Of a stretch of DNA of 64,000 nucleotides, positions 2,605 to 56,870 are shown one piece after another. The first letter of the stretch is position 1, and the number at the start of each line of letters is the position of its first letter. Below the pieces are notes generated by a model. It searched no databases. It saw nothing but the letters and a program-made list of their open reading frames with translations, and was not told the DNA's origin. This DNA is from an uncultured Methanosarcinales archaeon (lineage in GTDB: Archaea; Nanobdellota; Nanobdellia; Woesearchaeales; WJKR01), in the NCBI GenBank assembly GCA_964556395.1, contig CAZKVR010000003.1, positions 30,715 to 94,714 of the forward strand, read 5' to 3'. The position numbers and the translations under genes are program-made.

Positions 2605-3198
2605 ATGGAAGCGTACCGCCAGACGACAGAGTACACCGGAGCGGCCGCGACGCTCCTCACCCTGCTCCACCACTACGACCCAGAGATACCGCTGAACCGG
2701 GAGGAAGAGTTCCGCATCTGGCACCGGACCGCAAACCTGCCGGTGAGGGCGCCGTCCATCTACGGCCTCGCGCTCGTGGCGCAGGAGCACGGCCTCAGAC
2801 CACGCATCGTGCTGGAAGAGAAGGAGTACGACTACCCGGACTACCGGTTCAAAGGATACACGAAGAAAGAAGTGGACGAGGCGAAGTTCTCATCAAAACT
2901 CTACGCCAAGCGGGCGGAGGCGGCAGGCATCCCGGTCGAACAACGCGAAGTCACGCTGAAAGAAGTCCTCAAGACCCTGAATGCAAGCAAGAAGCTCCTG
3001 CTACGCGTCAACGCCGGCGTGTTCCGCAAGACAGGCAGCACGAGCAAGTACGTCGCAGTCCACCAAAAACAAGGAGTCATCAAGGCCGTCGACCCGAGGT
3101 ACGGAGAGCTCGACGTCAAGGAAGAGGAACTGGAAGAAGCCATGGCGACGCTGCAGACGAAGAAGAAACGCGACGTCCGGATGATAGTCCTGGACTAG
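2605..3198 (+). CDS. Papain-fold peptidase C39-like domain protein (DUF3335-like), catalytic Cys apparently replaced by Thr
   Basis: YRQTTEYTGAAATLLTLLHHY matches the C39 Q-x5-C-G-x-A-x-L pattern with T at the Cys position. A downstream H....G.I.AVDP resembles the C39 His/Asp region. 197 aa. Starts 6 nt after the DUF1704 stop. Confidence 0.45.
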   Translation: MEAYRQTTEYTGAAATLLTLLHHYDPEIPLNREEEFRIWHRTANLPVRAPSIYGLALVAQEHGLRPRIVLEEKEYDYPDYRFKGYTKKEVDEAKFSSKLYAKRAEAAGIPVEQREVTLKEVLKTLNASKKLLLRVNAGVFRKTGSTSKYVAVHQKQGVIKAVDPRYGELDVKEEELEEAMATLQTKKKRDVRMIVLD

Positions 3199-20002: not shown

Positions 20003-20995
20003 TTATAACCGTTGCCCTTTGTCTGCGGCCGATGGCGTGTCGAAGAGCGTTGAAAGCTCGTCCACCCTGTAGAAGAGCGACTTCGCCTTCTCTACTGCCT
20101 TGGCGACCTTGATGGTAGACTCGTGGCGTTCCTGATATGCGTCGAAGGCCTTGGTGAATGAGTCCCGCTCCAGGGCGAGGGTGTGGAATGACGGGACGTC
20201 CTTGCGGTAGTAGGCCGACATGAGGGCGTCGTAGTGCTTCGACAGTTTCTTCAGGAGTGCGGTGAGGTTCTGGGTCTGGTCGTCATCGAGTGGGAGGAGG
20301 AGCCTGGCGAGGCGTTTGAGCTCGTCGCCAATCTTCTCCATTGTCTGGACGAGGTCCCATACGTGGAGGAGGTCGCCGTTGGTCTGATAGGGGTCTCTCG
20401 CTCGGGGGTGGTCGAGGAGGTATTTGACTGCGCGCATGACGAGGTATGCGAGGCGGTTGACGTCCCAGTCGCGTTCGGTGATGTTGATGGGGATGTCGAT
20501 GCCCGAGAACTTGTTCGGGTCCTCGACGCGCGAGATGACGTCCATGAAGGATGACTTGAGGATGGCGTCTATCTTGCGGACGAGGTTTCCCACCTGGATG
20601 TCCCTCATGTTGAGGTAGCACCGGGCTTGGATGCGTTGGGCCGACTCCTCGATGATCTCGAGCGAGACGAGCTGGTGCATGAATTCCCGGACATCCTTGT
20701 TCTTCTTCGGGATTTCACGGCCGGTGAGGAGGACGACGTCGGCGTTGTTGAGGTATGCGCTGATGACATTGCGCTTGATGGTGTCGAGCGGTACGTTGTC
20801 GACGGAGAAACGGTAGGTGCGCTCTTCTTGGCGGCGTTCGGTCGCCCTGCCCGGGGAGAGGATTATGCCGTTCTCAGAGGTTTCGAGCCTGAGGCTGTCT
20901 CCCGGTTCCAGATTGTTCCTGGAGGCCCATGATTTCGGGAGCGAGACGATGAGCGAGTTCTTTCCGAACCTGATTATCTTGCGGTATTCTGCCAT
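20003..20995 (-). CDS. AbrB/SpoVT-like N-terminal domain fused to PhoU-like domain (phosphate uptake regulator-like)
   Basis: N-terminal swapped-hairpin region KIIRFGKNSLIVSLPKSW. Helical PhoU-like remainder. Paralogue of 56007..56870. Confidence 0.55.
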   Translation of the reverse strand: MAEYRKIIRFGKNSLIVSLPKSWASRNNLEPGDSLRLETSENGIILSPGRATERRQEERTYRFSVDNVPLDTIKRNVISAYLNNADVVLLTGREIPKKNKDVREFMHQLVSLEIIEESAQRIQARCYLNMRDIQVGNLVRKIDAILKSSFMDVISRVEDPNKFSGIDIPINITERDWDVNRLAYLVMRAVKYLLDHPRARDPYQTNGDLLHVWDLVQTMEKIGDELKRLARLLLPLDDDQTQNLTALLKKLSKHYDALMSAYYRKDVPSFHTLALERDSFTKAFDAYQERHESTIKVAKAVEKAKSLFYRVDELSTLFDTPSAADKGQRL

Positions 20996-40092: not shown

Positions 40093-42039
40093 TCAGTAGT
40101 TCACCGAAATCTCGACGTCCTTGCCGAACACCTGGACGAGGTCGTCGAAGATGGGCTGCTTGATGAACGCCCGCGACGGGATCTCCACCTTGGCGAGGGC
40201 GTGCTCCAACTCCTCCAAGGAAGACTGCCGGACCTTGCCGAGCGAGCCGTCAGCCTGGACCTCGGCCTTGCTGACATCCTTGTCCTCACGGTCGATGTCA
40301 TGGATGATGAACGCTTGCTTGCCGAGCAGGACGACCTCACCGTACGTGTTGCCATGCTTGACCCGGATCTTGGTCCGCTCAAGCTCTCGGCCGCGGCGTC
40401 GCTGGAGGTGCTCGACGAGCGCCTTGACGAGCTCGCGAGACTTCTTCTTAGCCTTCTGCGCCTCAGCCTTGGTGAGCTTACCCTTCTGATACTCGTCCTT
40501 AGCCGCGATGACCTCTTCCAAGAGACGCGCGGTCTTGGCAGGGAGGGATCCCTTGTCAGTCAAGAACTCCTTGAAGGACTTGAGCAGGTCGGCGTCCTTC
40601 ACCTTGTCGACGCCCTCGAAACGGAGGATGTCGCGCACCACGGTGGCGACGCTGTCGTACGACTCGAGGACAGTCTCCTTCTCCTTGAGCTCATCAATCT
40701 TCTCGAACAACGACTTGAGACGCTTGAGATACTTCTCAGAACCCTCTAACAAGTCGTCGATCTCCTTGCCGGAGACACCCTTCTTCGACCCGTGCTCGAT
40801 CGTCTTACGAGTCTTGAGGACCTGCTCGAGGGTCTTGACGTACTCCTCCTCCAATATCTTCTCCTTCTTGACGAACAACTCGCGGAGGAGTTCCGGCGTC
40901 TCCTTCGGCGTCGGCGGAGGCACGCCATACAGCATGAGAGCCGCCTGGGACGGCGTGATCGTCGCCCAGAAGAAGTCGTCCACCCCGATATCCCTCAGTT
41001 TCCCCTTGATACGGTCGACCATCTGCTCGCCAGTGCTCATGAACATCTCGATGGCCTCGGGGGACGGCTTGATACGACCCATCTTGAGGAGTTGCTTCCA
41101 AGGCATGAAGATACCCCGGTCGTAGAGAGGGATGCCATCCCGGAGGAAGGTGAAGATGATAGGGTTGGCCTCCTTGATGTTCTCCCAGAAGTCAGTGAGG
41201 ATGTACACCTGGATGTTAAGCTTGTTCTCGATACCAGTCATCTTGCCGGCCTCGAAGCCCATGCTGACGATGATAGCACGGAGCTTGTCCTTGAGCTCGG
41301 CACGAGTCATCTTCTTGACGTCGGTGTCATCCACGACTATGAACACGTCGATGTCGGACTGGGGCGTCGCCCGTCCCTGGACGAGGGAGCCCGCGAGGAC
41401 GTAGGAGACGATGTACTTCTCGAACTTCTTGATAACCATGGACTTGTGGAGCTCGGAGATCTTCAAGGCGGCGAGCATGCCCTTGTCATAGACAGGAGCG
41501 GCGTTGGCCACGAGTTGCAAGAGGTCGTACTTGGCATCATAACAGGACTGCCACAGCTCTGATAATAGGATGGTCTGCGGGACGAGGTGCTTGTCGACCT
41601 CAGACGCCATCTTCTGGAAGACGCCGGAGAGCTTCTCCTTCAACTCCTCCTTCGACATCTTCGTGCTGTCCGTGTCATCCACGAGGACAAGAGCGTTGAC
41701 TTGTTGCTCCAGGTCGTCCCGCTCCTGCTTGGAGAGCTTGCGCTCCTCATCCTGCTCGACCTGCTCCGGCTTGGACGGCGGGAGCAAGGCGATACCCATG
41801 ACGTAATCCTCGAACTTGCCGAGCGCCTTCTTCTGGAACTTGTCCAGCATGACCTTGATATCCTCGAGGCGGTCCTTAGAAGCCGCAGGGAGGTCCTGCG
41901 GGAGGTTATCCAAGAGGTCGACGTGCTTCGGCGCGTCCTCCGTCTCAGGCTGCTTCTTAGGAGCAGGCTTCTTCTTGGCCGGAGCATTCTTGGAATCCTT
42001 CTTTGAACGAGAACTTTTCTTCACCATGAGAGAGAACAC
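40093..42039 (-). CDS. Large protein with Lys-rich N-terminal tail and two tandem minimal nucleotidyltransferase (pol-beta superfamily)-like domains
   Basis: GSLVQGRATPQSDIDVFIVVDDTD (GS...DxD) and an upstream degenerate repeat NALVLVDDTDSTKMSKEELKEKL // DVFIVVDDTDVKKMTRAELKDKL. A-run at 40080-40087 is a T-run terminator on the coding strand. Confidence 0.45.
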   Translation of the reverse strand: MFSLMVKKSSRSKKDSKNAPAKKKPAPKKQPETEDAPKHVDLLDNLPQDLPAASKDRLEDIKVMLDKFQKKALGKFEDYVMGIALLPPSKPEQVEQDEERKLSKQERDDLEQQVNALVLVDDTDSTKMSKEELKEKLSGVFQKMASEVDKHLVPQTILLSELWQSCYDAKYDLLQLVANAAPVYDKGMLAALKISELHKSMVIKKFEKYIVSYVLAGSLVQGRATPQSDIDVFIVVDDTDVKKMTRAELKDKLRAIIVSMGFEAGKMTGIENKLNIQVYILTDFWENIKEANPIIFTFLRDGIPLYDRGIFMPWKQLLKMGRIKPSPEAIEMFMSTGEQMVDRIKGKLRDIGVDDFFWATITPSQAALMLYGVPPPTPKETPELLRELFVKKEKILEEEYVKTLEQVLKTRKTIEHGSKKGVSGKEIDDLLEGSEKYLKRLKSLFEKIDELKEKETVLESYDSVATVVRDILRFEGVDKVKDADLLKSFKEFLTDKGSLPAKTARLLEEVIAAKDEYQKGKLTKAEAQKAKKKSRELVKALVEHLQRRRGRELERTKIRVKHGNTYGEVVLLGKQAFIIHDIDREDKDVSKAEVQADGSLGKVRQSSLEELEHALAKVEIPSRAFIKQPIFDDLVQVFGKDVEISVNY

Positions 42040-42193: not shown

Positions 42194-43018
42194 ATGATAC
42201 CCATGGCCGACAAGAAAAAAGAATCAAACGACGTCCCAGACGCCTTCGACAACAAGGAACTTGAAGGCATCATCAAAGGGTTTGGAGAGTACAAGAAAAT
42301 AGAAGACAAGAAAGAATTCCCAAACCTAGAACTCAACCTCGCGAAAAGTTGGGAAGACAGCTACCAGAACAACCTGAAAGAAAAGCTTGAGAAGAAGTTC
42401 AAAGATAAAGGGGGACTCGCTAAGAAGCTAGAGCAGCAAGACGAATCGGACCTCAAAGAAGTCGCCCATGACTTCTTCATGGAATACCTCGAGAACGCCC
42501 ACAAGCATACCAACCACGACATAGAAAAAGGCTATCTCAACCGACTCAAAAATCTTATCAAAGAACAAAAAACCAAAGGGAAAGACGCCTACAGCCTTTC
42601 ATCAAGCATCTACCACAACCTCTTAGGCCTGAGAGAAAATGACAAAGAACACATGGACAACATCATCAACTCGGCAATCGCCCAGCACATGACAGGGGCG
42701 GAGTTCCTCAACTACCTCCAAAACGAGATTAAAGGCGAGCACGTAGGGAGACACCGCCAAAGAGTGGAACGTGCCGAATTCGAGAAAAAAGTCGGCAACC
42801 ACGACCCCATCAAATACCAAGCGGCAGTCGAGAAATTCATGAAGAACTACGACGCAAAAGTCGATAACCACGGACTCTTCATGAGAGTAAACCCACAGAA
42901 AGCGTACCAAATATGGAAAAACCTCGAGCACGGATCAGAATTCGGCGAGAAATTCGACTACGAAAGCGTCGGCGTCAAGTACAAACCCATAAAGGCCCCG
43001 AAAGACGACAAGAAGTGA
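42194..43018 (+). CDS. Lys/Glu-rich hypothetical protein encoded in an AT-rich island
   Basis: 274 aa, no TM. GC content visibly lower than surroundings. TATA AAAAATATATAAAAC upstream. Bidirectional A/T-run terminator at 43219-43242. Confidence 0.45.
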   Translation: MIPMADKKKESNDVPDAFDNKELEGIIKGFGEYKKIEDKKEFPNLELNLAKSWEDSYQNNLKEKLEKKFKDKGGLAKKLEQQDESDLKEVAHDFFMEYLENAHKHTNHDIEKGYLNRLKNLIKEQKTKGKDAYSLSSSIYHNLLGLRENDKEHMDNIINSAIAQHMTGAEFLNYLQNEIKGEHVGRHRQRVERAEFEKKVGNHDPIKYQAAVEKFMKNYDAKVDNHGLFMRVNPQKAYQIWKNLEHGSEFGEKFDYESVGVKYKPIKAPKDDKK

Positions 43019-43270
43019 ACCGGCAATAAAAACCCTTTCTCTAATTCTTCTCCTTATGAGAACACCATTCCCAACCATCACCCAGAAGACTATTGCGCCG
43101 ACGGCCTGGACAAGAAACTTGACCCGAAGAAACACACCGAGAATCTCCACGAGAAGTTCGGCATAGACTACAAGCCATTAGAAGCATCCAAGAAAGAAGA
43201 CAAGAAAGCGGCTTGAGAATAAAAAAATAACTTCTTTTTTTTACAACACTTCTCACAACAAGGAAAGAAA

Positions 43271-45568
43271 TCACTCCGCAGGCTGCGCCGACGGCTCTTC
43301 CTCACCGAAGCGCGGCTCCAGACGATCCCGATACATGTCAGTGTAACCCTCGACCTGGCCGAGGACTCCGAGGTCGGCGTGCTTCTCAAGGTCGTCGAGC
43401 CTTATAGAGACATAGTTCAGCACCAAAGAATCCTCATGGTACTCTTCAACACCCACTTCAAGACTATTACTGCCGGTAAGCCTGATACCGCCTCTGTAGA
43501 TGGAGTCGTTGAACTCAACCGCAGGGATGGTCTCAGACCCCTCAGGCCCGTCGAACCAGCCCTCACCCCACGTCACCTCGTCCTCAGGTATGAGTACCTT
43601 CTCACGTTGGCGTCCCTCGCCCAAACGTGTGACGAGGAAGGCTTCTACATCGTAAGAGCCCTTTGCGAGCGGAACTGAGAAAGTGTCGGCGTTCGTGTAG
43701 TTAGCGACAACCATCTCCACCCGTTCCGGCTCGCCAGGCGCGGTATGGCGTGTGAAAATGATAGTGAGAAGGTCATCAGGCCTCAACGCTTCACGCTGCG
43801 TGCCCACTTCCCAGATACCCGATCGGGGGTCGATGCCATACTCCTCAAGCTCAACCACTTCCTCCTCAAAAGACTTTTTGAGACCATCATCGCCATACAT
43901 CACATCAGCAGGCATCTTCTTGAAGAGCGGCAGGCCGCGTAGTTCCAACTCAAACTCCTTGTGAGGGTAAGCTTCGACGCTCACCTGTTGCGGATCGTCA
44001 TCAAGGACGTCGATATCCTGAGGGTCAATATAATATCCTTCCTTCTCACCAGTCAAGAGGCCGTCGATGCAGAACGGCAAACGGGTCACCGCGATCCCAT
44101 CACTGCCAGTACGGTCGGAGGCGTGAGTCGAGGCCGAACCGCACGAGTAGGTGAAACCGACGTCTTCGACCGGATCCCCTGTAAGCACGTCAGTGACGTT
44201 GATAGTGATGTTCCCATCCATACGTTGACTCTCCATGGAGAACAGGTTCTGGCCGACCGAATCATTCCCGAGGGAAGGATCGCTGTAAAGCATCGGCTCG
44301 TTCTGGACGAGCCCGGCCTCCACTCCGACGAGCATCGAGAGACCTTCACCATCGAACGCGTCCGAGTCCTCGGCCATGAGGAGAAGCGGTACGACGACGT
44401 CGTAGTCGAAGTAATACTCGTAGAACCCGATACTGAACAATAACTCCAAGCCTATAGTCATGCCGCTAGGTTCAAGGACGTAACCATTACCAGGCCCTAT
44501 CTTGAGGTCCACAGGCCACTCAGAGTCATAGTTGAAACTGTAAGCGACGCCAGAAGCGTACGACGGGTTGTCGAAAAGGACGTCAGGCCTGAACACCCCT
44601 GGTGCGTTGTAGACCGCCTGCGAGAACTGGTTGTCGGTCATCACGATGTTCCGGTCAGCAGTGTTGCCGACCTGTATGAGCGGCAGGTTGTCGGCGAGCC
44701 TTCGTTCAAGGAACTCCTTAACATCAGGGTACATCCACCGGTCTTGATTGTTGGTCTCAAACTTCGTACCGCCGTACATGGGAGGAATCTCCGGGTCCTC
44801 TCCCATACTGTATGCCTCGATGACTTGTTTGACGGCATGGTGGATCGTGTCAGACTTGTTCATGAGCACCAGGAATTCCACGACGTCCTTGGTCGACTCG
44901 TAGAGCTCCTTGGCAGGGGCTTCCTGCAATGCAGACACCTCCTTGACAGACGTGTTCGCACCCGTAGAAGTGTATGTGAAACTGACGTTACGGTGGAGTT
45001 CATAGGTGATGCGCCCTTCTCCGATTATAGCCTCTACAGAGAATTCTTCAGCAGGCTCTACAAGGTAGTCGTCACTGAAAGACATACGGTCGAGGCACGG
45101 CCCGACGTTCTCTTCAACCCCCTTTTCCAACTGTGATTCTATGCTAGGAAGTCTACCCCCACTCCCTTTCTTGAGAGGTGGTATCCCTATGGAGAACTCA
45201 CAGTCGTGAAGGCACCCTGCTGGGCTTCGCTGCTCGACCCAGTAGGGTACGAGGAACTCTTCCGTGAGGGGGAGAGAGTTTCCGAGAGTCGGATTCTCCG
45301 GGAAGCCCACCTTCCCTTGCTGCTTAGGCTCGTAGAAACCTCCGTGCGAGTATATCTCCTTGAGAACTCGCTTGCCCTCTTCACGCAGGCAGCTCGCGGC
45401 TTCCCGCTCGTACGAGGCCTTGATCGCGTCGAAGTCGTGCGTTATCGTCTGCCCAGCGGGATCAACCTGCTGTTCCGTCCTTCTCACGAACAGGAATAAG
45501 GCTACTATGAGTATCAGCACTAACCCTATGATGACGAATAACGTGACCTGACCTACGCGCGACCTCAT
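43271..45568 (-). CDS. Large membrane-anchored or secreted surface protein (about 765 aa from MRSRVGQV)
   Basis: N-terminal TM/signal anchor VTLFVIIGLVLILIVALFLFV. Large extracytoplasmic region. Start overlaps the upstream giant gene's stop (ATGA). Confidence 0.5.
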   Translation of the reverse strand: MRSRVGQVTLFVIIGLVLILIVALFLFVRRTEQQVDPAGQTITHDFDAIKASYEREAASCLREEGKRVLKEIYSHGGFYEPKQQGKVGFPENPTLGNSLPLTEEFLVPYWVEQRSPAGCLHDCEFSIGIPPLKKGSGGRLPSIESQLEKGVEENVGPCLDRMSFSDDYLVEPAEEFSVEAIIGEGRITYELHRNVSFTYTSTGANTSVKEVSALQEAPAKELYESTKDVVEFLVLMNKSDTIHHAVKQVIEAYSMGEDPEIPPMYGGTKFETNNQDRWMYPDVKEFLERRLADNLPLIQVGNTADRNIVMTDNQFSQAVYNAPGVFRPDVLFDNPSYASGVAYSFNYDSEWPVDLKIGPGNGYVLEPSGMTIGLELLFSIGFYEYYFDYDVVVPLLLMAEDSDAFDGEGLSMLVGVEAGLVQNEPMLYSDPSLGNDSVGQNLFSMESQRMDGNITINVTDVLTGDPVEDVGFTYSCGSASTHASDRTGSDGIAVTRLPFCIDGLLTGEKEGYYIDPQDIDVLDDDPQQVSVEAYPHKEFELELRGLPLFKKMPADVMYGDDGLKKSFEEEVVELEEYGIDPRSGIWEVGTQREALRPDDLLTIIFTRHTAPGEPERVEMVVANYTNADTFSVPLAKGSYDVEAFLVTRLGEGRQREKVLIPEDEVTWGEGWFDGPEGSETIPAVEFNDSIYRGGIRLTGSNSLEVGVEEYHEDSLVLNYVSIRLDDLEKHADLGVLGQVEGYTDMYRDRLEPRFGEEEPSAQPAE

Positions 45569-48500
45569 CCTACCTCGAGCCTCCTGCAGAACTTTTTCGA
45601 ACTGGTAGTGATATCGAAGAAATCCTTGATGTCTCCGACGTGGAAGTGGAGGCACACCTGGTCGTACCGGTCGGAGGTGGCCTCACCACTGCTAGGATAG
45701 TCTATCATGCTGCCGAGGATGCGCTCCCAGCTGTCGCCTGGCGGCACGTCGATACGGGTCAATGAACGACCCTCCTCATCGACCTCCAACGGCACATCAA
45801 CCGAACCCCTCCCCTCCGTCGACGAGAGTCGGAGGCTGAAGGTGAGGTTCTTGTCGTTGTCATGGCTGTTGCTCACTAGCGCGTTCAGCGTGTAGGAATA
45901 CTGTTCGGTCCCATCACGCAATCCTTCCTCCTTGATAAGGCCTGCTGCGAAGGCGGCAGTACTCGTCTCACCAGACTGTTCTTCGATGTTGGCTTTCACG
46001 CCTTCTGCGCCTCCAAGCTTTTCTTTGCAGATGTTCTCCCCTGTCAACCAGGACTCAACCTCGTCCTTAGCATCCTCGAGTTTCTCATTGCTCCAAGGGT
46101 TGTCAATCCACCCATCATCACCCATAAAGGTGTTCGAGAAACTATTCACCATGTTCAAGGTGGAGAAGTACGTGCCTATGCGTGACAATCCTCGTATGTT
46201 CTTATCGACGAACATCTCGGCCTTAAGAGACCCTTTGATCTTGCGGCGTCCTTTCTTCGCTTCCTTGAGGTCTTCTTCGACCTTCTCGAGCTTGTTACCG
46301 ATATCCTCCGAGTCGTCAGGTTCGAAGTCTTCATCTTTGAATTTTTCTTCGATATCATCGAGGCGTTTTTGTTCCTGATCGGTCAACTCGTCCTTTGCTT
46401 TGAGATCCTTATACTCTTCAGCTTGTTCATGGAGCCGCTCCAGACGATCGGCTTCCGGTTTCAGCGATGCAATCTCATTCTCATACTCGGCAAGATCAGT
46501 GACATAATCCTCGACAAATCCGGAGTCGATATCGTACCCTTGCTCCTCGAGCATGTCTGAAAGGCCCTCCGCATACTTCTTGGTTGTCTCTTCTGACGTG
46601 TAGAGGATGTTACCGACCGTTTCCTTATGCTTGAACTCACTATTAATCTCATTGAGATCCTGGCTCTTCTCTTTGAAGTTATCCAGATTCTTGAGGTGTG
46701 ATGACATCTCATCTTTCGATTTATCCAGTTCCTTTTTCAGTGACTTCAGAGAATCTATTTGTGATTCATAATTAGCCGTCGATACTTCATCCTCTGGATT
46801 CTCAGGATCAGGAGGTGTCTGGAGATCTATCATCGTTTCATAATGGTTTATCTCTTCCTGTGTCTTATCCATAGCCTGGTCCAACTGGTTCAACCCCTGC
46901 TCCAGTTCGCCTTTCAACGGACCATAAGGCCTCAAGTGATCGTTAGTATCCCACGAGCCCTCGAGAGGATTATCATTCGCCCATGGTTCGTCCAGATTCT
47001 GGAAATTGTTGGCATACCGCTGGTAGCCCTGGATGAAGTCATCGGTGAAGAGGGAATCTTCCATGACTCGATCGTAGGACTGCCTCACGTCCTCGTCGTA
47101 AGGCGTATCCTCCAAGTCCTCCTTAAGATTGCTCCAATCATCGGCGGACGACAGCAACTCCGTCCGCGACTCCCTCAATATCGTTGAGTAATCATCACGC
47201 GTCCCCATGAAGTTGCCCGAACCATCATATATGACTGAGGAGTCCCCATCTGGAGAGAACATTATCTTCGTCTCTACATTTCCTTCTTTGAAACTGCATC
47301 CCGTGAAGGGGTTGCAGTGGGTACAATCCTTACAGTTATTGATACGTTCAGTATCCGTTATGACGTCCCCATGAGAGTCGAACGTACGGTACAACGGCTC
47401 GAACCCTTCATCCTGGACGGAGTAATCCCAGTAGCCGCTCTCGCGATCGACGCTCTCCCTGACAGGACCGCAGACCTCCTGCCCGAGCTGGCCGGAGTTC
47501 GATAACTTCCGCAACTGATCATGCAACCGCGACAACTCCTGAACACCATTGTAGAATCCTTTTAAGCCGACGGCAGCAGAACATATCTTCTTCGGAAGCG
47601 TGTAGTCACTACCAGCCCCAATCTCACAGAAAGCTATGATTGCGCTTCCTCCAAAGAGAGCGACCGGGTTGCTCGCAGCCTCCAAGAGGGTGCTCGTATA
47701 GTCCTTGATGAACGAGACGGGAAGAGCGCTCAACCACCCGCCAGTCATGAACAGGCAGGACTCGTATCCGCGCTGCTGCTGGCACATATCGATGGTCGCC
47801 CGACCGTTCCGAACGTCCCTCGAGAGGCACGTAATGTAGTTGCAGTCGACAGAGGCGTAGCGTTCGACATGATATACCATAGCAGGGACGCATGCAGTCA
47901 TCGCAGAAGCCGCGAACCCGCTGTACGGGTCCCACGCACGGTTCGGATCAACACCGACATCCTTGGCGACATCCCCAAATTTTCCCAAGTCCTCACCCAT
48001 GTCAAATCCTAATACGTCTCCGGTCCAGGACATGTCGCACGTAGTAATCTTGCACGCCTTGTTGACAGACTTGAAAGCACCGCTCTCAGAAACCTTCTGG
48101 AGGTTGATGCCAATTGATTGGAGCAAGTTGCTGATAAAAGTCCCTTCGGAGCCCGCAGCTGCACCGTTTAAGCCACCGCCAGCCCCTTTTATAGCAGGGG
48201 CGGCCGCGCACACCAGATTGAGACCTGCTAGGGTTTGCCGTGCTGTTTGCACCCATGAGAGGGATTTTACAGTAGAGTTCATCTCATATAAAACCTCATC
48301 ACGAATCTTCGCACCCATCGTATCGGACTCGTCGAGTTCAAACGACATGGTGAACGTCTCCTCCTCAGTGGTGGAGAGGTAGTCTCCTTTGAGTGTCTGA
48401 AGGTTGAGGGAGCAATTGTATCGGAGGTGGTTCCGCTCGGCATAATGCGAACCCGTGTTGAGAACTCCGCGTAGGAGCACGGTCCCGCTCGTGACGCTTG

Positions 48501-49854
48501 AGACCTTGAATCTCAAGTCACCTTCCTTGCCATAGGTTTCCCCCTCCTGATTAGGATCGGGAAAGGGGTTGCACGTACCAGTCATACGAGCGGAGACGAG
48601 GGTCTGGCTACTGCCTGCGGGATCAAGGGATAGCGGCACGAAGAAGCGTTTCGACGTTTGCTCGAGGAACCCCTTGTTGGCTCTCTGAGGCTCAGGATCG
48701 ACTGCAGTCCAGAGGTCGGCGGGCCCTGTGCGTCGTTCCACAACCTTGACGTCGAGGTCTCGGTGCGTGGCGGTCTGTCCTGAGAGGTCTTGAAGTGTCA
48801 ATGGTATGGTGAACGTGCCTAGTTCGGACGGCGTCGCTTCGACGGATACGGTGCACGTCCACTCGTCATCGGAATCATCCTTCTGGGTGCAGCTACCTTC
48901 CACTTCCTCTCCGCCGAGGCTCTGCGCGTCTGCGGTCATCTTGAGTGTCGGGCTCGTGCTTTCCGTGACGTTGACCTCGATGGTAGCGGTGTCGCCCATG
49001 GCGACGACCGGGTGTTCAGACTCTTCTGAAGGCTGTGGCGCGTCACTCGTGACCACTGGGTCGCCTGAGAATTCCGGCTCCCGGGCGTCGCACACCACTT
49101 CCGACTCCGTGATGCCTGTCAGCGGGTTGCCGGCGTCGTCCTGGCTCGGTCTCGAACCGGTGTAAGTGGTGAGGGTTAGCGACACCTTGCGGCCATCCTG
49201 GCATGACGCGGTCGAGACCCCGTGGCACGTGGTGTCTTCGCAGGTGGAGACGAGCGACCGCGTCCCGTCAAGGGCGAAGGCTATCCGTAGCCGGTGGAAG
49301 GTGGCTTTCGGGTCTTCCATCTTTATCGTGACAGGGGTGTAGCCGCTCTGGGCGTAGCACGTCCCTTCGTGGCACGTGTCGGTTCCGAGGAAGGTTACTT
49401 CCGGTCGGGTGTCGTCGATGGTGAAGGCGAATGTTTGCGTGTGCGTCTCGCTGTGGTCGCCGAAGAGATGGGCGGTGATGTTAATGGAAGGGTTTTCTTT
49501 GCTTGGTTGTATGACGAGGCCTGTGAGGGGGCATGAGAGGTTGTGGCCGTCGTAGAGGCAGTCTCGTTTTTTTATGGTGGCAGTGGTTTCTCCTCGTGGG
49601 TTGAGCTGTTCGTGGTCTATCGTGAGTGATTCGACCTCGCTCGCGTCCGATAGCTTGACGAACAGCGTGACGGGGGTGGGGTGTCGTGGGTTGATGGTGT
49701 CCACGTCGTGGCCGTTCCATCGTAGGGCTGCCTCTTCGAGAGCCGTGGCGGCTGTGAGCGCTGGGAGCGAGAGGGCTAGGAACAGTAGGAGTAGGGTCTT
49801 CTTGGTTGCCGCTCTCAAAAAACACGCCACCTCTTCTCGATGATGAGGAGGCAC
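45565..49854 (-). CDS. Giant secreted surface protein (1429 aa) with signal peptide and central coiled-coil/low-GC segment
   Basis: Signal peptide TLLLLFLALSLPALTAATA. Cys-containing modules. Lys/Glu-rich coiled-coil stretch (about aa 880-1150). Confidence 0.55.
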   Translation of the reverse strand: MPPHHREEVACFLRAATKKTLLLLFLALSLPALTAATALEEAALRWNGHDVDTINPRHPTPVTLFVKLSDASEVESLTIDHEQLNPRGETTATIKKRDCLYDGHNLSCPLTGLVIQPSKENPSINITAHLFGDHSETHTQTFAFTIDDTRPEVTFLGTDTCHEGTCYAQSGYTPVTIKMEDPKATFHRLRIAFALDGTRSLVSTCEDTTCHGVSTASCQDGRKVSLTLTTYTGSRPSQDDAGNPLTGITESEVVCDAREPEFSGDPVVTSDAPQPSEESEHPVVAMGDTATIEVNVTESTSPTLKMTADAQSLGGEEVEGSCTQKDDSDDEWTCTVSVEATPSELGTFTIPLTLQDLSGQTATHRDLDVKVVERRTGPADLWTAVDPEPQRANKGFLEQTSKRFFVPLSLDPAGSSQTLVSARMTGTCNPFPDPNQEGETYGKEGDLRFKVSSVTSGTVLLRGVLNTGSHYAERNHLRYNCSLNLQTLKGDYLSTTEEETFTMSFELDESDTMGAKIRDEVLYEMNSTVKSLSWVQTARQTLAGLNLVCAAAPAIKGAGGGLNGAAAGSEGTFISNLLQSIGINLQKVSESGAFKSVNKACKITTCDMSWTGDVLGFDMGEDLGKFGDVAKDVGVDPNRAWDPYSGFAASAMTACVPAMVYHVERYASVDCNYITCLSRDVRNGRATIDMCQQQRGYESCLFMTGGWLSALPVSFIKDYTSTLLEAASNPVALFGGSAIIAFCEIGAGSDYTLPKKICSAAVGLKGFYNGVQELSRLHDQLRKLSNSGQLGQEVCGPVRESVDRESGYWDYSVQDEGFEPLYRTFDSHGDVITDTERINNCKDCTHCNPFTGCSFKEGNVETKIMFSPDGDSSVIYDGSGNFMGTRDDYSTILRESRTELLSSADDWSNLKEDLEDTPYDEDVRQSYDRVMEDSLFTDDFIQGYQRYANNFQNLDEPWANDNPLEGSWDTNDHLRPYGPLKGELEQGLNQLDQAMDKTQEEINHYETMIDLQTPPDPENPEDEVSTANYESQIDSLKSLKKELDKSKDEMSSHLKNLDNFKEKSQDLNEINSEFKHKETVGNILYTSEETTKKYAEGLSDMLEEQGYDIDSGFVEDYVTDLAEYENEIASLKPEADRLERLHEQAEEYKDLKAKDELTDQEQKRLDDIEEKFKDEDFEPDDSEDIGNKLEKVEEDLKEAKKGRRKIKGSLKAEMFVDKNIRGLSRIGTYFSTLNMVNSFSNTFMGDDGWIDNPWSNEKLEDAKDEVESWLTGENICKEKLGGAEGVKANIEEQSGETSTAAFAAGLIKEEGLRDGTEQYSYTLNALVSNSHDNDKNLTFSLRLSSTEGRGSVDVPLEVDEEGRSLTRIDVPPGDSWERILGSMIDYPSSGEATSDRYDQVCLHFHVGDIKDFFDITTSSKKFCRRLEVG

Positions 49855-49890
49855 TCGCGACGGGCCTTTAAATAATTTTCTATAGTTGGT

Positions 49891-52517: not shown

Positions 52518-55500
52518 CTAGGTCCACTTGGGCATCTGGACCGTACGCATCTGCCTGTTATAAAACTTTTGCGTCGGCTGCTTCTTCGGCTCGGGGTCCG
52601 ATGGGTCCATCCCTTTGAGGGAGTGGACGTCGACCCCGAACGCGTCTACGATATGATTCTCCAAACCCCCTTTTGCGTGCACCTCTTGGTTCCGGACCTT
52701 ATAGCCGTCGAGGAACCGGTCGGTCACGGCTTCTACGAACATGGAGCCGTCGCTGGGGAAATCCAGGATGACGCCCGTGGGTCCGAGCCCGTCGTGGAAT
52801 TGGCGGTCGAACTCGTAGCCTGACATGCCGGCTTGCCCTCCGGCTACGATGTTGAGGGTGTTGTCCTTCTGGGAGACGTCGAAGAGGTGGTAGTGCCCTT
52901 GTGCGAGCCATGCGAACGGCTTGGCCAAACCCCCCATCTGCCGTTTGAAGGATTCCATGAGCGAGCTGGGACGGCTGCTGCTACCCTTGCCGGCTCCTCG
53001 TATGGAGAAGGTGTGCTTGAACAGCCCAGGCATGTTGTTGATGTCCAGACCCCCAGTGTAAGTGAAGGCGACGTCGCCGTTGGGTAACTCGATATAGTTG
53101 GGGAAGTCCATCGTCATATCCAGTCCTTTAGCGCGCTTGTAGCCTTCGAGCTGTCCTTGGAGGTATTCCATATACTTGGTGCCTTGGGCGAGCTTGTCGG
53201 TGTTCCACTCATGGTTGCCAGGCACCATCTTGAGGGCGAAGATTCTGGGGTCGACGAGCCACGGGAAGAAGGCGTCTGTGAAGCCTTTCTGCATGTTGAA
53301 CGTCGCGACCGCGCCGAGGGATGCGTTCTCGACGGGCATCATCGAATAGTTGCGGAACTGTCCGAAGTCTCCGATGCCGCAGATGACGTACCGTGTGCCT
53401 TCGGGAACGTCACGGCTGTTGAGCCAGTAATCCATGGCTTTCAATCCTGACTCGGGCCTTTCGGTTATTGATCCGAACTGGGTGTCGTTGAGGAAGAACA
53501 CGCTGTAGTAGTTGTACCCATCCCCGGATTTCTGGACGCGCTCCATATTTTCGATGACTTTCGGGAAGACGGGCTTGTAGAGGAATCGTCCTTCCTTTAG
53601 CGAGCCTGCGAGTATGTCGGAGCCTGGCTTGTTATGGTTGTGCCAACTGCCGACAGTGTTGCGCTTGTGAGACGGATCTGCGAGGACTTCTTTTGAAGTG
53701 GCTCTCATGCCCGGTTCGAACTCCCTCGCGTCGTCTACTAGGTGCGGCGTCCATTTGACGAGCTTGTTCTCGATGATGCGCAAACCTTGATGGGCTGAGT
53801 AGCCATCGAGCATGAGTTCTTCCTTGTTGACGTGGTCGAGAGAGCCGTTCTGGGACGCGCGAGCGAGGTCTTCGAGGGAGACGGTCGGGTTGAGGTATTG
53901 CGTGATGGATGAGAAGTTAGGGTTGGAGAATATCTTGGCGTCCGACTTTTCGAGGGAGTGCTTGTCGAAGAGGACTTTCAGTTGGTCTGTGTCTTCAAGG
54001 TATTGTTCATCGAAGAGCGCTCGCTGGGTTTCTGTGAGGGTGCGCCCGTTGCGGTGGTCGTTGAACGCGTCTACGAGGCTTATGATGCCTTCATAGTCGG
54101 TGTCTGAGAACCCTATCGGGTCGTGGCCTGATCGTAACATGTAAGGTATGAGTGCTTGTTCTATCGTCTCGTAGGCGGGGTCGAACTCGCTGCGGTCGTA
54201 GTAGAGCGTGTTGTACGCTCCGGAGTTGATGCTGGAGTGTCGTTGTCCGGTCTCGCGGTCTCGGGCGGCTACCGCGTCTGCGTAGACGCGCTTGAGGCTC
54301 TCAGCCATCTGGTTGAGCTTCTCACCCATGACGAGGGTGACTGGCTTGTCGATACGGTCGAGGAATTCGTTGTGTAGGTGTTGTAGCTGTTCGTCGAGGC
54401 TTTCCAGGCCTTTCTTGAGGAGTTTTCGACGGTCGGTCCCGAGCCTGAGATGTGGTGTCTCTATCGGGTCGAAGAGTACTACTTCGTCGACGTCTTGGGC
54501 GTTTGCGATCTCGATGTTCTGCTTGAATGCTTTCTCATCGGTGTAGATGTGGCCTATGTTTGAGTGTGAGAAAGTGGCTAGACGCCTGCCCGGCACGTCG
54601 GGTAGCTTGTGGATGTTGTTGAAGCTCTTCACGTCTTGTTTTTCAAGGTCGTATTTCTCCTGATCCGGGGCTTTGTCCGAGTGTTGGAGTAATGTTTTAG
54701 TTGATGAGAATTCGGTCTTTCTCATGCCGTCTTTGCGCTTCGCGCCGGAGTAGATGACGAACTCCGCGTTCTCTTTGAAGAAGCTCGGGTCGGCTATTCG
54801 TTTGAGGTGTGGTATGAAGGCTGCATCGAAGGGTTTGCTGCCTCGTTCCGGGGAGAGGCCGTAGATGTCGAGAAGTTTCCGTATCTGGCCTGCGCCTTCC
54901 TTGGTGGTGAGGTCTGCGTTGATGAAGTGGGCGTTGGTCTTGCCTTTCTTAACGTTGAAGAATTTTCTGGCGCGCTGATATAGCTTGTCGTTGGCCATGT
55001 AGTGTGTGTGCTTGCTCTCACGGATGTTCTTGAAGAATTGTATCGTGAAGTCCTGATAGTCTCGGGGGTCTGCGAGTTTCGTACTGACCGGCCCGAGCTT
55101 GTTCTTCATGTTGAGAGGTCCTATGGAGTGTCTGAGGAGTTCTTGCAGGGGCACGTCGTCAGTGCGGAACACTCTTCGGGCATGGTTGTACGTGTCTTTC
55201 ACGTGTGCGAGAGGGTCGTACTCGTTCTTCTTCTTGGCTCCGAAGTTAAGGAGGAAGTCTTCGTAGTTGTCGAGTAGTTGAGATAATTTCTCCCATGATT
55301 GGTTCTGGAGGAATTCTTTTGGGATGCTGTTTTGTGGTACTCCGAAGAGACTTGCTATGAAGCCTGCCCGATGATTGTTGGCGGCGGCGTTTATCATGTG
55401 GTAGTAGAGGTTTCCGAGGTTGTTGATGTTGGTGTCGACTGCGAGGAGGCTTGGTTGAAAGTATGATTCTTCGGCGATGTTGGCGTAGAGCGAGAGCAAC

Positions 55501-55712
55501 GCGTCCGAACCGCCTGCCTGCCCTAATATGAATGGCTTAGTAGGTAGTGGTTGTGATTGGTTGAAGTTGAGGAGTATGTCTTTTATTGTGGGTTCTATTA
55601 GGTCTGTGGATGTGAGTTTCACCTTGAAGAGTTCTGCAGGGTCTTGGTCTTCGGTGGTGTGTTCTCGGTAGATGTCGTCTAGTCTTGTTTCCACGAGTTT
55701 TTGCAGTGTCAT
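52518..55712 (-). CDS. Large (1064 aa) cytoplasmic protein with C-terminal calcineurin-like metallophosphoesterase domain
   Basis: Metallophosphoesterase motifs VICGIGDFG, VPGNHEW, AQGHYHLFD. No signal peptide. Strong SD GAGGGAGGG 5-10 nt upstream of ATG. The 5' region is about 190 nt long. Confidence 0.5.
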   Translation of the reverse strand: MTLQKLVETRLDDIYREHTTEDQDPAELFKVKLTSTDLIEPTIKDILLNFNQSQPLPTKPFILGQAGGSDALLSLYANIAEESYFQPSLLAVDTNINNLGNLYYHMINAAANNHRAGFIASLFGVPQNSIPKEFLQNQSWEKLSQLLDNYEDFLLNFGAKKKNEYDPLAHVKDTYNHARRVFRTDDVPLQELLRHSIGPLNMKNKLGPVSTKLADPRDYQDFTIQFFKNIRESKHTHYMANDKLYQRARKFFNVKKGKTNAHFINADLTTKEGAGQIRKLLDIYGLSPERGSKPFDAAFIPHLKRIADPSFFKENAEFVIYSGAKRKDGMRKTEFSSTKTLLQHSDKAPDQEKYDLEKQDVKSFNNIHKLPDVPGRRLATFSHSNIGHIYTDEKAFKQNIEIANAQDVDEVVLFDPIETPHLRLGTDRRKLLKKGLESLDEQLQHLHNEFLDRIDKPVTLVMGEKLNQMAESLKRVYADAVAARDRETGQRHSSINSGAYNTLYYDRSEFDPAYETIEQALIPYMLRSGHDPIGFSDTDYEGIISLVDAFNDHRNGRTLTETQRALFDEQYLEDTDQLKVLFDKHSLEKSDAKIFSNPNFSSITQYLNPTVSLEDLARASQNGSLDHVNKEELMLDGYSAHQGLRIIENKLVKWTPHLVDDAREFEPGMRATSKEVLADPSHKRNTVGSWHNHNKPGSDILAGSLKEGRFLYKPVFPKVIENMERVQKSGDGYNYYSVFFLNDTQFGSITERPESGLKAMDYWLNSRDVPEGTRYVICGIGDFGQFRNYSMMPVENASLGAVATFNMQKGFTDAFFPWLVDPRIFALKMVPGNHEWNTDKLAQGTKYMEYLQGQLEGYKRAKGLDMTMDFPNYIELPNGDVAFTYTGGLDINNMPGLFKHTFSIRGAGKGSSSRPSSLMESFKRQMGGLAKPFAWLAQGHYHLFDVSQKDNTLNIVAGGQAGMSGYEFDRQFHDGLGPTGVILDFPSDGSMFVEAVTDRFLDGYKVRNQEVHAKGGLENHIVDAFGVDVHSLKGMDPSDPEPKKQPTQKFYNRQMRTVQMPKWT

Positions 55713-56006: not shown

Positions 56007-56870
56007 ATGGAAATACGAAAACTCCAAATAGTAGGCAACCGCAGCTACTCCATATCTCTCCCCAAAGGATGGGTACTACAAAACAACCTGAAACCCAAAG
56101 ACAACATCTACATCTCAGAAGAAGCCAACAACACCCTATGCATCACCGCAAGCGAAGGCACACAAGAAAACCACAACTACACTTTCAAACTAGACAACAT
56201 CAGCCACGTCAAGGAATTCGTAAGATTCTGTTATGAGAAGAACATCAAGAACATCAGGTTCTTCTGGGACACCCACCAACCCAAGAAGATCAACGCAGTG
56301 AAAGACATCCTAAGATACCTCGACGGATACGACCTCGTCCAAGAAGGCGAAGGGTTCCTCGAGATAGCATTCCTGTTCAACGAGTTCAACATCACTCTGA
56401 ACAAACTCCTCAACAGAACCATATACCTCCTCACAACACAGTTCGAATCCATCATGAACGGGAGCGAAGAAGACATCCGAGAGAACGAAATATCCATCGA
56501 CAAAATCTACCTCCTCGCCAAACGCATAATCTTCGCCAGCATCCGCAACCAAAAGCTTCGGACGGAGAACAAAATCACCTACGACGAGGAGATATTCAGC
56601 TACAAAAACATCTTCAAGAAACTAGAGAACATCGCAGACGTCCTGTACGAGATGCGCGACAAGAAATTCAATGAGAAAGACATGGCAAAACTCAAGCAAG
56701 TCGTCGAACACCTCAAAACCACCATCGTGAAGAGAAAGATACCAGAGAGCGAAAGCATCTTCTCAAAAGACCCCCTAACAGACTTCTTTTTCCACCGCAT
56801 CAACAGCCTGAAGGAAGACATCGAACAAGAAATCCGCACGATGGACTTCATCCACACATACTTCACTTGA
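56007..56870 (+). CDS. AbrB/SpoVT-like N-terminal domain + PhoU-like domain protein, low-GC paralogue of 20003..20995
   Basis: MEIRKLQIVGNRSYSISLPKGW aligns to MAEYRKIIRFGKNSLIVSLPKSW. Codon usage is AT-rich (AAA, AAC, ATA), unlike the rest of the window. Confidence 0.55.
   Translation: MEIRKLQIVGNRSYSISLPKGWVLQNNLKPKDNIYISEEANNTLCITASEGTQENHNYTFKLDNISHVKEFVRFCYEKNIKNIRFFWDTHQPKKINAVKDILRYLDGYDLVQEGEGFLEIAFLFNEFNITLNKLLNRTIYLLTTQFESIMNGSEEDIRENEISIDKIYLLAKRIIFASIRNQKLRTENKITYDEEIFSYKNIFKKLENIADVLYEMRDKKFNEKDMAKLKQVVEHLKTTIVKRKIPESESIFSKDPLTDFFFHRINSLKEDIEQEIRTMDFIHTYFT

What the first reader, a model, noticed from the sequence alone, without database searches (positions are those of the whole stretch)
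43271..49854. Operon of two giant surface proteins (1429 aa and about 765 aa) with an ATGA start/stop overlap
The upstream ORF has a cleavable signal peptide, multiple Cys-containing modules and a central low-complexity coiled-coil segment. The downstream one starts inside the upstream stop (TCAT on the plus strand at 45565-45568) and has an N-terminal TM anchor followed by a large extracytoplasmic region. Neither shows obvious S-layer or known adhesin motifs to me. They are candidates for novel adhesin or attachment-organelle components.
Basis: partly seen in the sequence, partly recalled or inferred. Interest (0 to 1): 0.5.

Follow-up and report, generated by a model that had tools for sequence, protein, structure and literature searches.

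The report
Woesearchaeal secreted protein plus pilin-like partner
Two overlapping genes in a tiny symbiotic archaeon (Woesearchaeota) encode a large, cysteine-rich secreted protein and a partner with a type-IV-pilin-type signal peptide; the pair belongs to a widespread uncharacterised family and probably forms a cell-surface complex, but its role in attachment is only inferred.

Summary
Gene A (45565-49818, minus strand; most likely 1417-1421 aa, not 1429) and gene B (43271-45568; 765 aa) overlap by ATGA. A TATA-like box precedes the pair and oligo-T tracts follow it. The window is a housekeeping region of a Candidatus Woesearchaeota (DPANN) MAG.

No Pfam, NCBIfam, PHROG, PADLOC or PDB match, and no fold search, gives either protein a known adhesin, S-layer or enzyme identity.

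A has a Sec-type signal peptide, beta-sandwich modules, a helical domain with invariant cysteines, an acidic coiled-coil stretch of variable length and a conserved C-terminal domain. It has no membrane anchor.

B's "TM anchor" is a textbook class III (prepilin-type) signal peptide: leader MRSRVG, then 21 hydrophobic residues. The motif [KR][GA]Q[VI]T is kept in 85 distinct homologues.

The A family has 1166 cluster representatives. In 65 assessable B-like genes, 37 sit next to an A-like gene and 14 more next to another giant Cys-rich secreted protein. The metG-linked locus is syntenic across the lineage. The ATGA overlap is kept in the closest clade.

Best reading: an unanchored secreted protein held at the surface by a pilin-like partner. 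An attachment or host-interaction function is plausible but unproven. It is an uncharacterised, lineage-specific family of moderate interest.

The parts
49867..49880 (-). Putative archaeal promoter: purine-rich BRE-like GAAAA followed by the TATA-like box TTATTTAAA. It lies between the metG stop (49891) and the start of gene A.
   Evidence: Read directly from the sequence. Promoter function is inferred, not tested.
45565..49818 (-). Gene A: 1417-aa secreted, cysteine-rich multidomain protein (NCBI ACLFO2_04455). Alternative starts are GTG 49830 (1421 aa) and GTG 49854 (1429 aa, unlikely).
   Evidence: A GAGGTG Shine-Dalgarno-like motif lies at 49833-49828.
49744..49818 (-). A residues 1-25: Sec-type signal peptide (MRAATKK, then the hydrophobic stretch LLLLFLALSLPAL, then TAATA).
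   Evidence: Sequence and hydropathy. The region is conserved in the alignment. 112 of 127 full-length family members have an N-terminal hydrophobic region; none has the class III motif.
48325..49743 (-). A residues 26-498: four beta-rich modules with DxTxPxV...DDAGN Ig-like signatures and invariant cysteines.
47284..48324 (-). A residues 499-845: helical domain with 15 cysteines and moderately hydrophobic Gly/Ala-rich segments. It is the most characteristic part of the family.
46234..47283 (-). A residues 846-1195: acidic (27% D+E), cysteine-free stretch, low-complexity and coiled-coil-like, of variable length.
   Evidence: Composition. Length varies among homologues. Spurious Rad50, tape-measure and JetC matches fall at 949-1213.
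45568..46233 (-). A residues 1196-1417: conserved C-terminal domain ending ...FCRRLEVG, with no hydrophobic tail. Some relatives encode it as a separate gene.
   Evidence: Alignments A1 and A7. hhalign against separate 'C-module' ORFs: probability 95.9%, E=6e-9. 0 of 127 family members have a C-terminal TM-like segment.
45565..45568 (-). ATGA: the start codon of B overlaps the stop codon of A (translational coupling).
   Evidence: The same overlap occurs in L001, L003, L005, L007 and L008.
43271..45568 (-). [quoted passage not shown]
45488..45568 (-). B residues 1-27: class III (prepilin-type) signal peptide. Leader MRSRVG, putative cleavage after Gly6, then 21 hydrophobic residues QVTLFVIIGLVLILIVALFLF.
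   Evidence: Sequence. Q7 and T9 are invariant. The motif is kept in 85 distinct homologues. It is the only FlaFind-type hit in the window. Definition taken from PMC4471445.
44279..45430 (-). B residues 47-430: alpha/beta ectodomain with no specific structural neighbour. It contains the conserved PPMYGGTKF motif.
43319..44209 (-). B residues 454-750: two beta-sandwich domains (transthyretin-like / CarboxypepD_reg / CnaB-like folds).
43221..43270 (-). T-rich stretch directly after the B stop codon, including a T7 run at 43227-43221. It is a likely archaeal terminator.
   Evidence: Sequence. Function is inferred.

Best explanation
A and B are the two subunits of a cell-surface complex specific to Woesearchaeota-type DPANN archaea.

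Proposed mechanism:
- A is exported through Sec, loses a class I signal peptide and folds into a disulfide-stabilised, elongated protein. Its parts are beta-sandwich modules, a Cys-rich helical domain, an acidic coiled-coil stalk and a C-terminal domain. It has no membrane anchor of its own.
[quoted passage not shown] A prepilin peptidase would remove the six-residue leader (MRSRVG) on the cytoplasmic side.
- The remaining 21-residue hydrophobic helix would then hold B in the membrane, or insert it into a type-IV-filament-like stub or pilus. This resembles a modular or minor pilin, or a bindosome protein.
- B's 700-residue ectodomain would bind A and so retain and display it.
- The ATGA overlap couples their translation and would give matched amounts.
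- The most likely role is contact with another cell or surface (host attachment), or building an outer envelope layer.

Shown here: the gene structure, the export signals, the lack of an anchor in A, the family-wide linkage of the genes and the absence of known catalytic domains.

Inferred only: leader cleavage, physical A-B binding, filament incorporation and the adhesive function.
For: 1. Gene unit: ATGA overlap, a TATA-like box upstream and oligo-T downstream.
2. A is secreted and unanchored. It has an N-terminal signal peptide and 30 Cys. Across 127 full-length family representatives, 88% have a signal-peptide-like N-terminus, none has a C-terminal TM segment and the median is 30 Cys. 14 Cys are invariant in residues 369-860 across 26 diverse sequences.
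3. B matches the definition of a class III signal peptide in PMC4471445. The leader is 6 hydrophilic residues ending in Gly, followed by 21 hydrophobic residues. [KR][GA]Q[VI]T[LIV][FY] is conserved in 85 distinct homologues and in the 11 proteins found without any use of that motif. A plain signal anchor would not need an invariant G-Q-V-T.
4. Linkage: 37 of 65 assessable B-like genes lie directly beside an A-like gene. Another 14 lie beside another giant (1100-2500 aa, 22-59 Cys) secreted protein.
5. Gene order differs (A-B, B-A'-C, A-Mem-B) but the partnership persists at a syntenic metG-linked locus.
6. The overlap is kept in five divergent contigs. Spacers of 2-20 nt occur in more distant A-B loci.
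7. No enzyme, transporter or defence model matches. The folds found are beta-sandwiches typical of surface proteins.
8. Literature: Woesearchaeota and Pacearchaeota carry lineage-specific, mostly extracellular families of unknown function (PMC8204110). DPANN archaea encode type IV filament systems (bioRxiv 10.64898/2026.04.22.720090).
Against: - No type IV filament ATPase, platform protein or prepilin peptidase lies in the 64-kb window or among the conserved neighbours in 79 related loci.
- Pfam pilin N-terminal models do not match B. The only hint is a sub-threshold TadE/G-like hit, E=0.054.
- The AF2 model of B shows a low-confidence break (residues 32-41) between the hydrophobic helix and the next helix. 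It does not show one continuous pilin alpha-1 helix.
- No direct evidence of A-B binding was obtained; no complex prediction was possible.
- No recognisable ligand-binding or lectin domain was found.
- The A-mid model has only moderate confidence (pLDDT 68; residues 695-777 below 50). The statement that it has no fold neighbour is therefore weak.
Confidence: 0.55

Rival explanations
1. A and B form a two-component S-layer or envelope lattice, analogous to SlaA/SlaB of Sulfolobales. A would be the large outer canopy protein and B the membrane-anchored stalk. The pair would be structural rather than adhesive.
For: - The layout is similar: a secreted protein of about 1400 aa without an anchor, plus a smaller anchored partner with beta-sandwich domains, encoded in one operon.
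- The locus is core, syntenic and linked to housekeeping genes across the lineage.
Against: - The SlaB match is one of many generic beta-sandwich hits.
- B's anchor is N-terminal and of class III type, whereas SlaB has a C-terminal TM segment. The coiled coil is in A, not in the anchored subunit.
- Many paralogous pairs occur per genome or locus.
- A paper on Woesearchaeota reports separately annotated S-layer genes among the most highly expressed genes (PMC11606122).
- No S-layer Pfam or NCBIfam model matches.
Confidence: 0.15
2. The pair is a bindosome-like or exoenzyme-display system. B would be a substrate-binding or scaffold protein delivered by the class III route. It would present various giant secreted proteins, some of them lytic, for nutrient scavenging or for attacking a bacterial host's cell wall. 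A would be one such cargo, with an undetected activity.
For: - B paralogues sit next to other giant Cys-rich proteins, including one with a Peptidase_M23 domain (L085) and ones with fn3 and Big_13 domains.
- Large extracellular murein-degrading proteins are reported as specific to Woesearchaeota and Pacearchaeota (PMC8204110).
- Class III signal peptides on non-pilin binding proteins are known in archaea.
Against: - No ABC transporter lies next to them.
Confidence: 0.12
3. There is no functional partnership. B is an ordinary type II (signal-anchor) membrane protein and A an unrelated secreted protein. The overlap reflects genome compaction in a small DPANN genome.
For: - ATGA overlaps are common (general knowledge).
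- DPANN genomes are compact.
- No interaction was shown here.
Against: - Adjacency persists through rearrangements of gene order and through fusion or fission of A, across dozens of species-level genomes and paralogous copies.
- The invariant G/A-Q-V-T motif at the start of B's helix is not explained by a simple anchor.
Confidence: 0.08

Closest known systems
Modular type IV pilins (Streptococcus sanguinis PilB and PilC) and PilY1/minor-pilin tip complexes
   Same: - Both have a class III signal peptide followed by a bulky extra module.
- A large Sec-exported partner without an anchor (PilY1-like) is encoded beside pilin-like genes.
- The proposed role is adhesion (PMC8179133 and PMC9934059, listed).
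   Different: - No sequence or fold similarity to PilB, PilC or PilY1 was found.
- No adjacent pilus machinery genes were found.
- B is far larger than typical pilins.
- The pilin fold is not clearly seen in the model.
[quoted passage not shown]
   Same: Both are large non-pilin ectodomains carrying a prepilin-type signal peptide, encoded away from the filament machinery.
   Different: - B has no substrate-binding-protein fold or Pfam domain.
- B is not next to an ABC transporter.
- B is paired with a giant Cys-rich secreted protein instead.
SlaA/SlaB two-component S-layer of Sulfolobales
   Same: - An operon encodes a secreted unanchored protein of about 1400 aa plus a smaller membrane-anchored, beta-sandwich-rich partner.
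   Different: - No sequence homology was found.
- Anchor type and end differ: N-terminal class III in B, C-terminal TM in SlaB.
- The cysteine richness, the many paralogues and the coiled coil being in the large subunit all differ.
Woesearchaeota/Pacearchaeota-specific extracellular families ('Module 98', Castelle et al. 2021, PMC8204110)
   Same: Both share the taxonomic restriction, the predicted extracellular or membrane location, the lack of annotation and the presence of very large proteins.
   Different: - That paper catalogues families and highlights a murein-transglycosylase family.
- In the passages I read, it does not describe the pairing of a Cys-rich secreted protein with a class III-signal partner, or its syntenic metG locus.
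- I could not map A or B to its family numbers.

Membership tests
Class III signal peptide / type IV pilin-like proteins (for B) | Short hydrophilic leader (6-26 aa), positively charged, ending in Gly (Ala tolerated in archaea) | tested here: met
   The leader is MRSRVG (6 aa). All 85 distinct homologues have [KR] close before [GA]. Definition from PMC4471445.
Class III signal peptide / type IV pilin-like proteins (for B) | About 21 predominantly hydrophobic residues directly after the cleavage site; Glu5 often absent in archaea | tested here: met
   Residues 7-27 are QVTLFVIIGLVLILIVALFLF, followed by VRR. The 19-residue Kyte-Doolittle mean is 3.55. My FlaFind-type pattern matched only this ORF in the window.
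Class III signal peptide / type IV pilin-like proteins (for B) | Match to curated pilin N-terminal models | tested here: not met
   A Pfam scan of B residues 1-80 at E<=10 gave only a sub-threshold TadE/G-like hit (PF13400, E=0.054, 14.3 bits against a cut-off of 22.3). No archaeal pilin N-terminal model matched.
Class III signal peptide / type IV pilin-like proteins (for B) | Pilin 'lollipop' fold: a continuous alpha-1 helix whose C-terminal half packs on a beta-sheet | tested here: inconclusive
   AF2 gives helix 4-30, a low-confidence break at 32-41, helix 47-74 and then beta-strands. Model coordinates could not be inspected.
Class III signal peptide / type IV pilin-like proteins (for B) | Genomic association with a type IV filament ATPase, platform protein or prepilin peptidase | tested here: not met
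   None was found in the 64-kb window or among the top conserved neighbour families of 79 loci. The rest of the genome was not available.
Class III signal peptide / type IV pilin-like proteins (for B) | Cleavage by a prepilin peptidase and incorporation into a filament | not testable with these tools
   This needs N-terminal proteomics or an in vitro peptidase assay.
SlaA/SlaB-type S-layer | Sequence or profile similarity to known S-layer families | tested here: not met
   No Pfam or NCBIfam S-layer model matched. PDB profile searches were empty.
SlaA/SlaB-type S-layer | Anchoring subunit with a coiled coil and a C-terminal TM helix | tested here: not met
   B's only hydrophobic segment is N-terminal. 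The coiled-coil-like segment is in A.
PilY1/PilC-type pilus tip adhesin (for A) | C-terminal beta-propeller (Neisseria_PilC domain) | tested here: not met
   No Pfam hit on full-length A or on its C-terminal 222 aa, even at E<=10. The C-terminal domain was not modelled.
Bacterial/archaeal Ig-like (Big) surface-protein modules (for the A N-terminal region) | Match to Big-family models, or a beta-sandwich fold | tested here: inconclusive

The most novel reading that the evidence does not exclude
The A/B module, together with the C-module and a polytopic membrane protein in related loci, could be the device by which Woesearchaeota engage or breach a host envelope. B would be a pilin-like membrane or filament anchor. 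A would be a stalked, disulfide-locked protein whose helical domain, with its Gly/Ala-rich and moderately hydrophobic segments, inserts into or remodels the host membrane. This would be a new kind of pore-forming or fusion-like contact apparatus behind DPANN-host cytoplasmic connections. The evidence does not exclude it. The helical domain has no structural neighbour, carries conserved hydrophobic stretches (family-mean Kyte-Doolittle up to 1.5; 19-residue windows 1.0-1.7), and sits on a long coiled coil. Nothing positively supports membrane insertion either.
Probability: 0.08. Interest if true: 0.9.

Novelty: new variant of a known kind. Interest (0 to 1): 0.5.

Why it matters
How DPANN archaea recognise and hold on to their hosts is largely unknown, and for Woesearchaeota neither the hosts nor the attachment molecules have been identified. 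This pair has several properties that make it a concrete candidate:
- It is core to the lineage and sits at a syntenic locus next to metG.
- It is exported.
- It is expanded into paralogous arrays.
- It recurs next to other giant secreted proteins, some with lytic domains.

If B is indeed processed as a prepilin, the use of the type IV pilin route to display very large non-pilin complexes would extend into DPANN archaea. The family has more than 1100 cluster representatives and no Pfam model, so defining it would also annotate many "hypothetical proteins".

Tried and rejected
**Database and structure searches that found nothing specific**
- Pfam, NCBIfam, PHROGs and PADLOC scans of A and B gave only coiled-coil noise at A 949-1213.
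- PDB sequence-profile searches with four alignments (A N-region, B, A mid-region, A C-terminus) found nothing significant.
- Foldseek against BFVD for B returned generic tail-fibre and baseplate beta-domains at TM about 0.1. A viral origin was rejected.

- AFDB50 was not available.
- The word-indexed homologue search found only 2-3 A relatives. The exhaustive HMMER search was needed.
- The first representatives job failed because the profile exceeded 1200 positions.
- A 92-sequence full-length alignment failed.

**Ideas considered and rejected**
- A mobile-element or provirus origin: the locus is housekeeping and syntenic.
- The neighbouring 'Mem' protein as a prepilin peptidase: it has no Peptidase_A24 hit and no GxGD motif.
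- The 1064-aa ORF upstream of metG as part of the system: it has no signal peptide, looks cytoplasmic and is absent from related loci.
- The small c12 secreted ORF as a homologue of A's C-terminal domain: hhalign probability 0.9%.

Full report
**1. What is there**

On the minus strand, ORF A runs from 49854 (first GTG) or 49818 (TTG) to 45565. ORF B runs from 45568 to 43271.

Upstream, metG (methionyl-tRNA synthetase) ends at 49891. The 36-72 nt before A contain GAAAA followed by TTATTTAAA (49880-49867). This looks like an archaeal BRE/TATA element. A GAGGTG motif lies 9 nt before the TTG at 49818.

The GTG at 49854 lies too close to the TATA-like box to be inside the transcript. NCBI's start gives 1417 aa. 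A GTG at 49830 aligns with the ATG start of a homologue. The 1429-aa figure is therefore probably 8-12 codons too long.

After B's stop there are T-rich runs, and a convergent ORF follows. A and B thus look like a two-gene unit with its own signals. That is an inference from sequence.

The rest of the window is housekeeping: IleRS, AlaRS, AspRS, GyrB, SRP54, TFB, RNR and methionine aminopeptidase. The exact proteins are recorded from a Candidatus Woesearchaeota MAG, which belongs to the DPANN kingdom Nanobdellati.

**2. Anatomy of A** (numbering from the TTG start)

- Residues 1-25 form a Sec-type signal peptide.
- Residues 26-498 hold four beta-rich modules. They carry DxTxPxV...DDAGN signatures typical of Ig-like surface modules, plus invariant cysteines.
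- Residues 499-845 form a helical domain; 15 cysteines lie in residues 521-845.
- Residues 846-1195 are acidic (27% D+E), cysteine-free and coiled-coil-like. Their length varies among homologues.
- Residues 1196-1417 form a conserved C-terminal domain ending FCRRLEVG, with no hydrophobic tail.

The only database hits are coiled-coil noise at 949-1213 (Rad50, tape measure, JetC, LmuB) and a sub-threshold Big_13 match.

**3. Anatomy of B**

The N-terminus is MRSRVG, then QVTLFVIIGLVLILIVALFLF, then VRR. This is a six-residue basic leader ending in Gly, followed by exactly 21 hydrophobic residues. It fits the published definition of a class III (type IV prepilin) signal peptide, including the frequent lack of Glu5 in archaea (PMC4471445).

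Q7 and T9 are invariant in the 11 homologues found without any use of the motif. The pattern [KR][GA]Q[VI]T[LIV][FY][IV]II[GA] recurs in 85 distinct homologues. It is the only FlaFind-type ORF in the window.

**4. The family and its genomic behaviour**

The word-indexed search found almost no A relatives. An exhaustive HMMER search with the N-region profile found 1166 cluster representatives at E<=1e-3, of which 169 reach E<=1e-30. Most are 1000-1700 aa long. The named members are all "hypothetical protein [Candidatus Woesearchaeota]".

Among 127 full-length representatives:
- 88% have a signal-peptide-like N-terminus.
- None has the class III motif.
- None has a C-terminal TM segment.
- The median is 30 cysteines.

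A scan of GTDB species genomes with the B alignment confirmed 149 relatives. Their records are titled Woesearchaeota, Nanoarchaeota/Nanoarchaeia or Pacearchaeota. Some TPA bins are labelled "uncultured Methanosarcinales", which I regard as placeholder names.

HMM annotation of all ORFs in the fetched loci gave these counts:
- Of 65 assessable B-like genes, 37 have an A-like gene directly adjacent on the same strand. It is upstream only in 7, downstream only in 28 and on both sides in 2.
- 14 more are followed by another giant (1100-2500 aa, 22-59 Cys) secreted protein. These belong to families carrying fn3/Big_13 domains or a Peptidase_M23 domain.

A core locus is recognisable across the lineage: MJ1341_C, a Zn-ribbon gene, metG, then [A B], [B A' C-module] or [A Mem B], then a nucleotidyltransferase.

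The window's A is a fusion of what elsewhere are two genes. A' carries the sandwiches and the Cys-rich helical domain. A separate C-module carries the coiled coil and the C-terminal domain. hhalign of A's C-terminal domain against those separate ORFs gives probability 95.9% (E=6e-9) and 89%.

A polytopic membrane protein of 254-297 aa with no Pfam match often sits just upstream of B. It is absent from the window.

The ATGA overlap is identical in five independent contigs in which B is 35-62% identical. More distant A-B loci have 2-20 nt spacers. The overlap is thus conserved in the clade, and the tight linkage is conserved more widely.

**5. Mechanism**

The facts to explain are:
- a secreted, disulfide-rich, elongated protein with no anchor;
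- an obligate neighbour with a prepilin-type N-terminus and a large ectodomain;
- translational coupling;
- persistence of the partnership through gene-order changes, gene fusion and paralogous expansion;
- no catalytic signature.

The simplest account is a heteromeric surface complex. In it, B is processed like a pilin and retained by its hydrophobic helix in the membrane or in a type IV filament-like stub. B then holds and displays A.

This works like modular or minor pilins with PilY1-type partners, or like the Sulfolobus bindosome. Membership in those families is not supported, because neither shares sequence or fold with A or B.

Attachment to a host or surface is the most natural function for an episymbiotic lineage. 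It also fits B paralogues being paired with giant proteins that carry lytic domains. It remains an inference.

I give 0.55 to the surface-complex model as a whole. The adhesive role alone deserves less.

**6. Rivals**

- **SlaA/SlaB-like two-component S-layer (0.15).** It shares the layout. It is weakened by the many paralogues, the different type and end of the anchor, the cysteine richness, and separately annotated S-layer genes in Woesearchaeota.
- **Bindosome-like or exoenzyme-display role (0.12).** It is suggested by the neighbouring families, but A and B show no such domain.
- **Mere adjacency (0.08).** It is hard to reconcile with the family-wide linkage and the invariant G-Q-V-T motif.
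- **Membrane-inserting or fusion-like apparatus.** This is the most novel reading not excluded. It rests on the fold-orphan helical domain with its Gly/Ala-rich, moderately hydrophobic segments. I rate it at about 0.08.

**7. Novelty and verdict**

The proteins are unannotated, have no Pfam family and have no structural neighbour for their characteristic domains. A 2021 survey noted that Woesearchaeota and Pacearchaeota share lineage-specific, mostly extracellular families of unknown function (PMC8204110). I found no description of this pairing, of the class III signal on B, or of the syntenic metG locus. The literature search was limited to the held library.

The general kind is known: an exported protein displayed by a pilin-like or anchored partner. 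I therefore class this as a new variant of a known kind.

Interest is moderate (0.5).

Noticed in passing
window 52518-55712 (-): A 1064-aa ORF with no Pfam, NCBIfam or PHROG match and no signal peptide. It contains a GNHE metallophosphoesterase-like motif. It lies upstream of metG, where related genomes have MJ1341_C, a Zn-ribbon gene and PterinBD genes, so it looks like a lineage-specific insertion.
   Followed up: partly
L009, L012, L016-L018, L029, L030, L040, L041, L049, L059, L073, L074, L077, L088 (for example L077:14375-15244): A polytopic membrane protein of 254-297 aa (no Pfam hit, no GxGD motif) sits immediately upstream of B-like genes in many related loci. It is absent from this window and may be a further component of the system.
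   Followed up: partly
L085:5726-13225; L034:5128-10020; also L036, L057, L058, L066, L071, L078, L079, L087: B paralogues are followed by other giant secreted proteins (1600-2500 aa, 34-59 Cys). One family has a Peptidase_M23 domain and another has fn3/Big_13 domains. Part of the latter shows weak profile similarity to A's Cys-rich domain (hhalign 82.7%).
   Followed up: partly
L016-L018, L020, L038, L043, L054, L059, L060, L073, L077, L083: In many relatives the coiled coil plus C-terminal domain of A is a separate gene downstream of a shorter A' (about 1050-1190 aa). The window's A is therefore a gene fusion, or the others are fissions.
   Followed up: yes
window 40093-42039 (-) and 42194-43018 (+): A 648-aa protein with a nucleotidyltransferase (NTP_transf_2 / Pol-beta) domain, and a Lys/Glu-rich 274-aa cytoplasmic ORF convergent with B. 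Both are conserved downstream of the pair in related contigs. Their function is unknown.
   Followed up: partly
window 1465-2598 (+), 3195-5454 (-), 16639-17736 (-): A MATCAP-family (microtubule-associated tyrosine carboxypeptidase) homologue (E=2e-46) lies next to a VWA protein and a MoxR-type AAA ATPase. A RimK-like ATP-grasp ligase lies elsewhere in the window. This is an unusual combination for an archaeon.
   Followed up: no
window 20003-20995 (-) and 56007-56870 (+): Two proteins of about 290-330 aa with an N-terminal AbrB/MazE-type domain. They are much longer than ordinary antitoxins.
   Followed up: no
L018, L020, L021, L024, L025 and other loci: Many TPA metagenome bins titled 'uncultured Methanosarcinales archaeon' carry typical Woesearchaeota-type A/B loci. 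The record titles are probably placeholder or wrong taxonomy.
   Followed up: no
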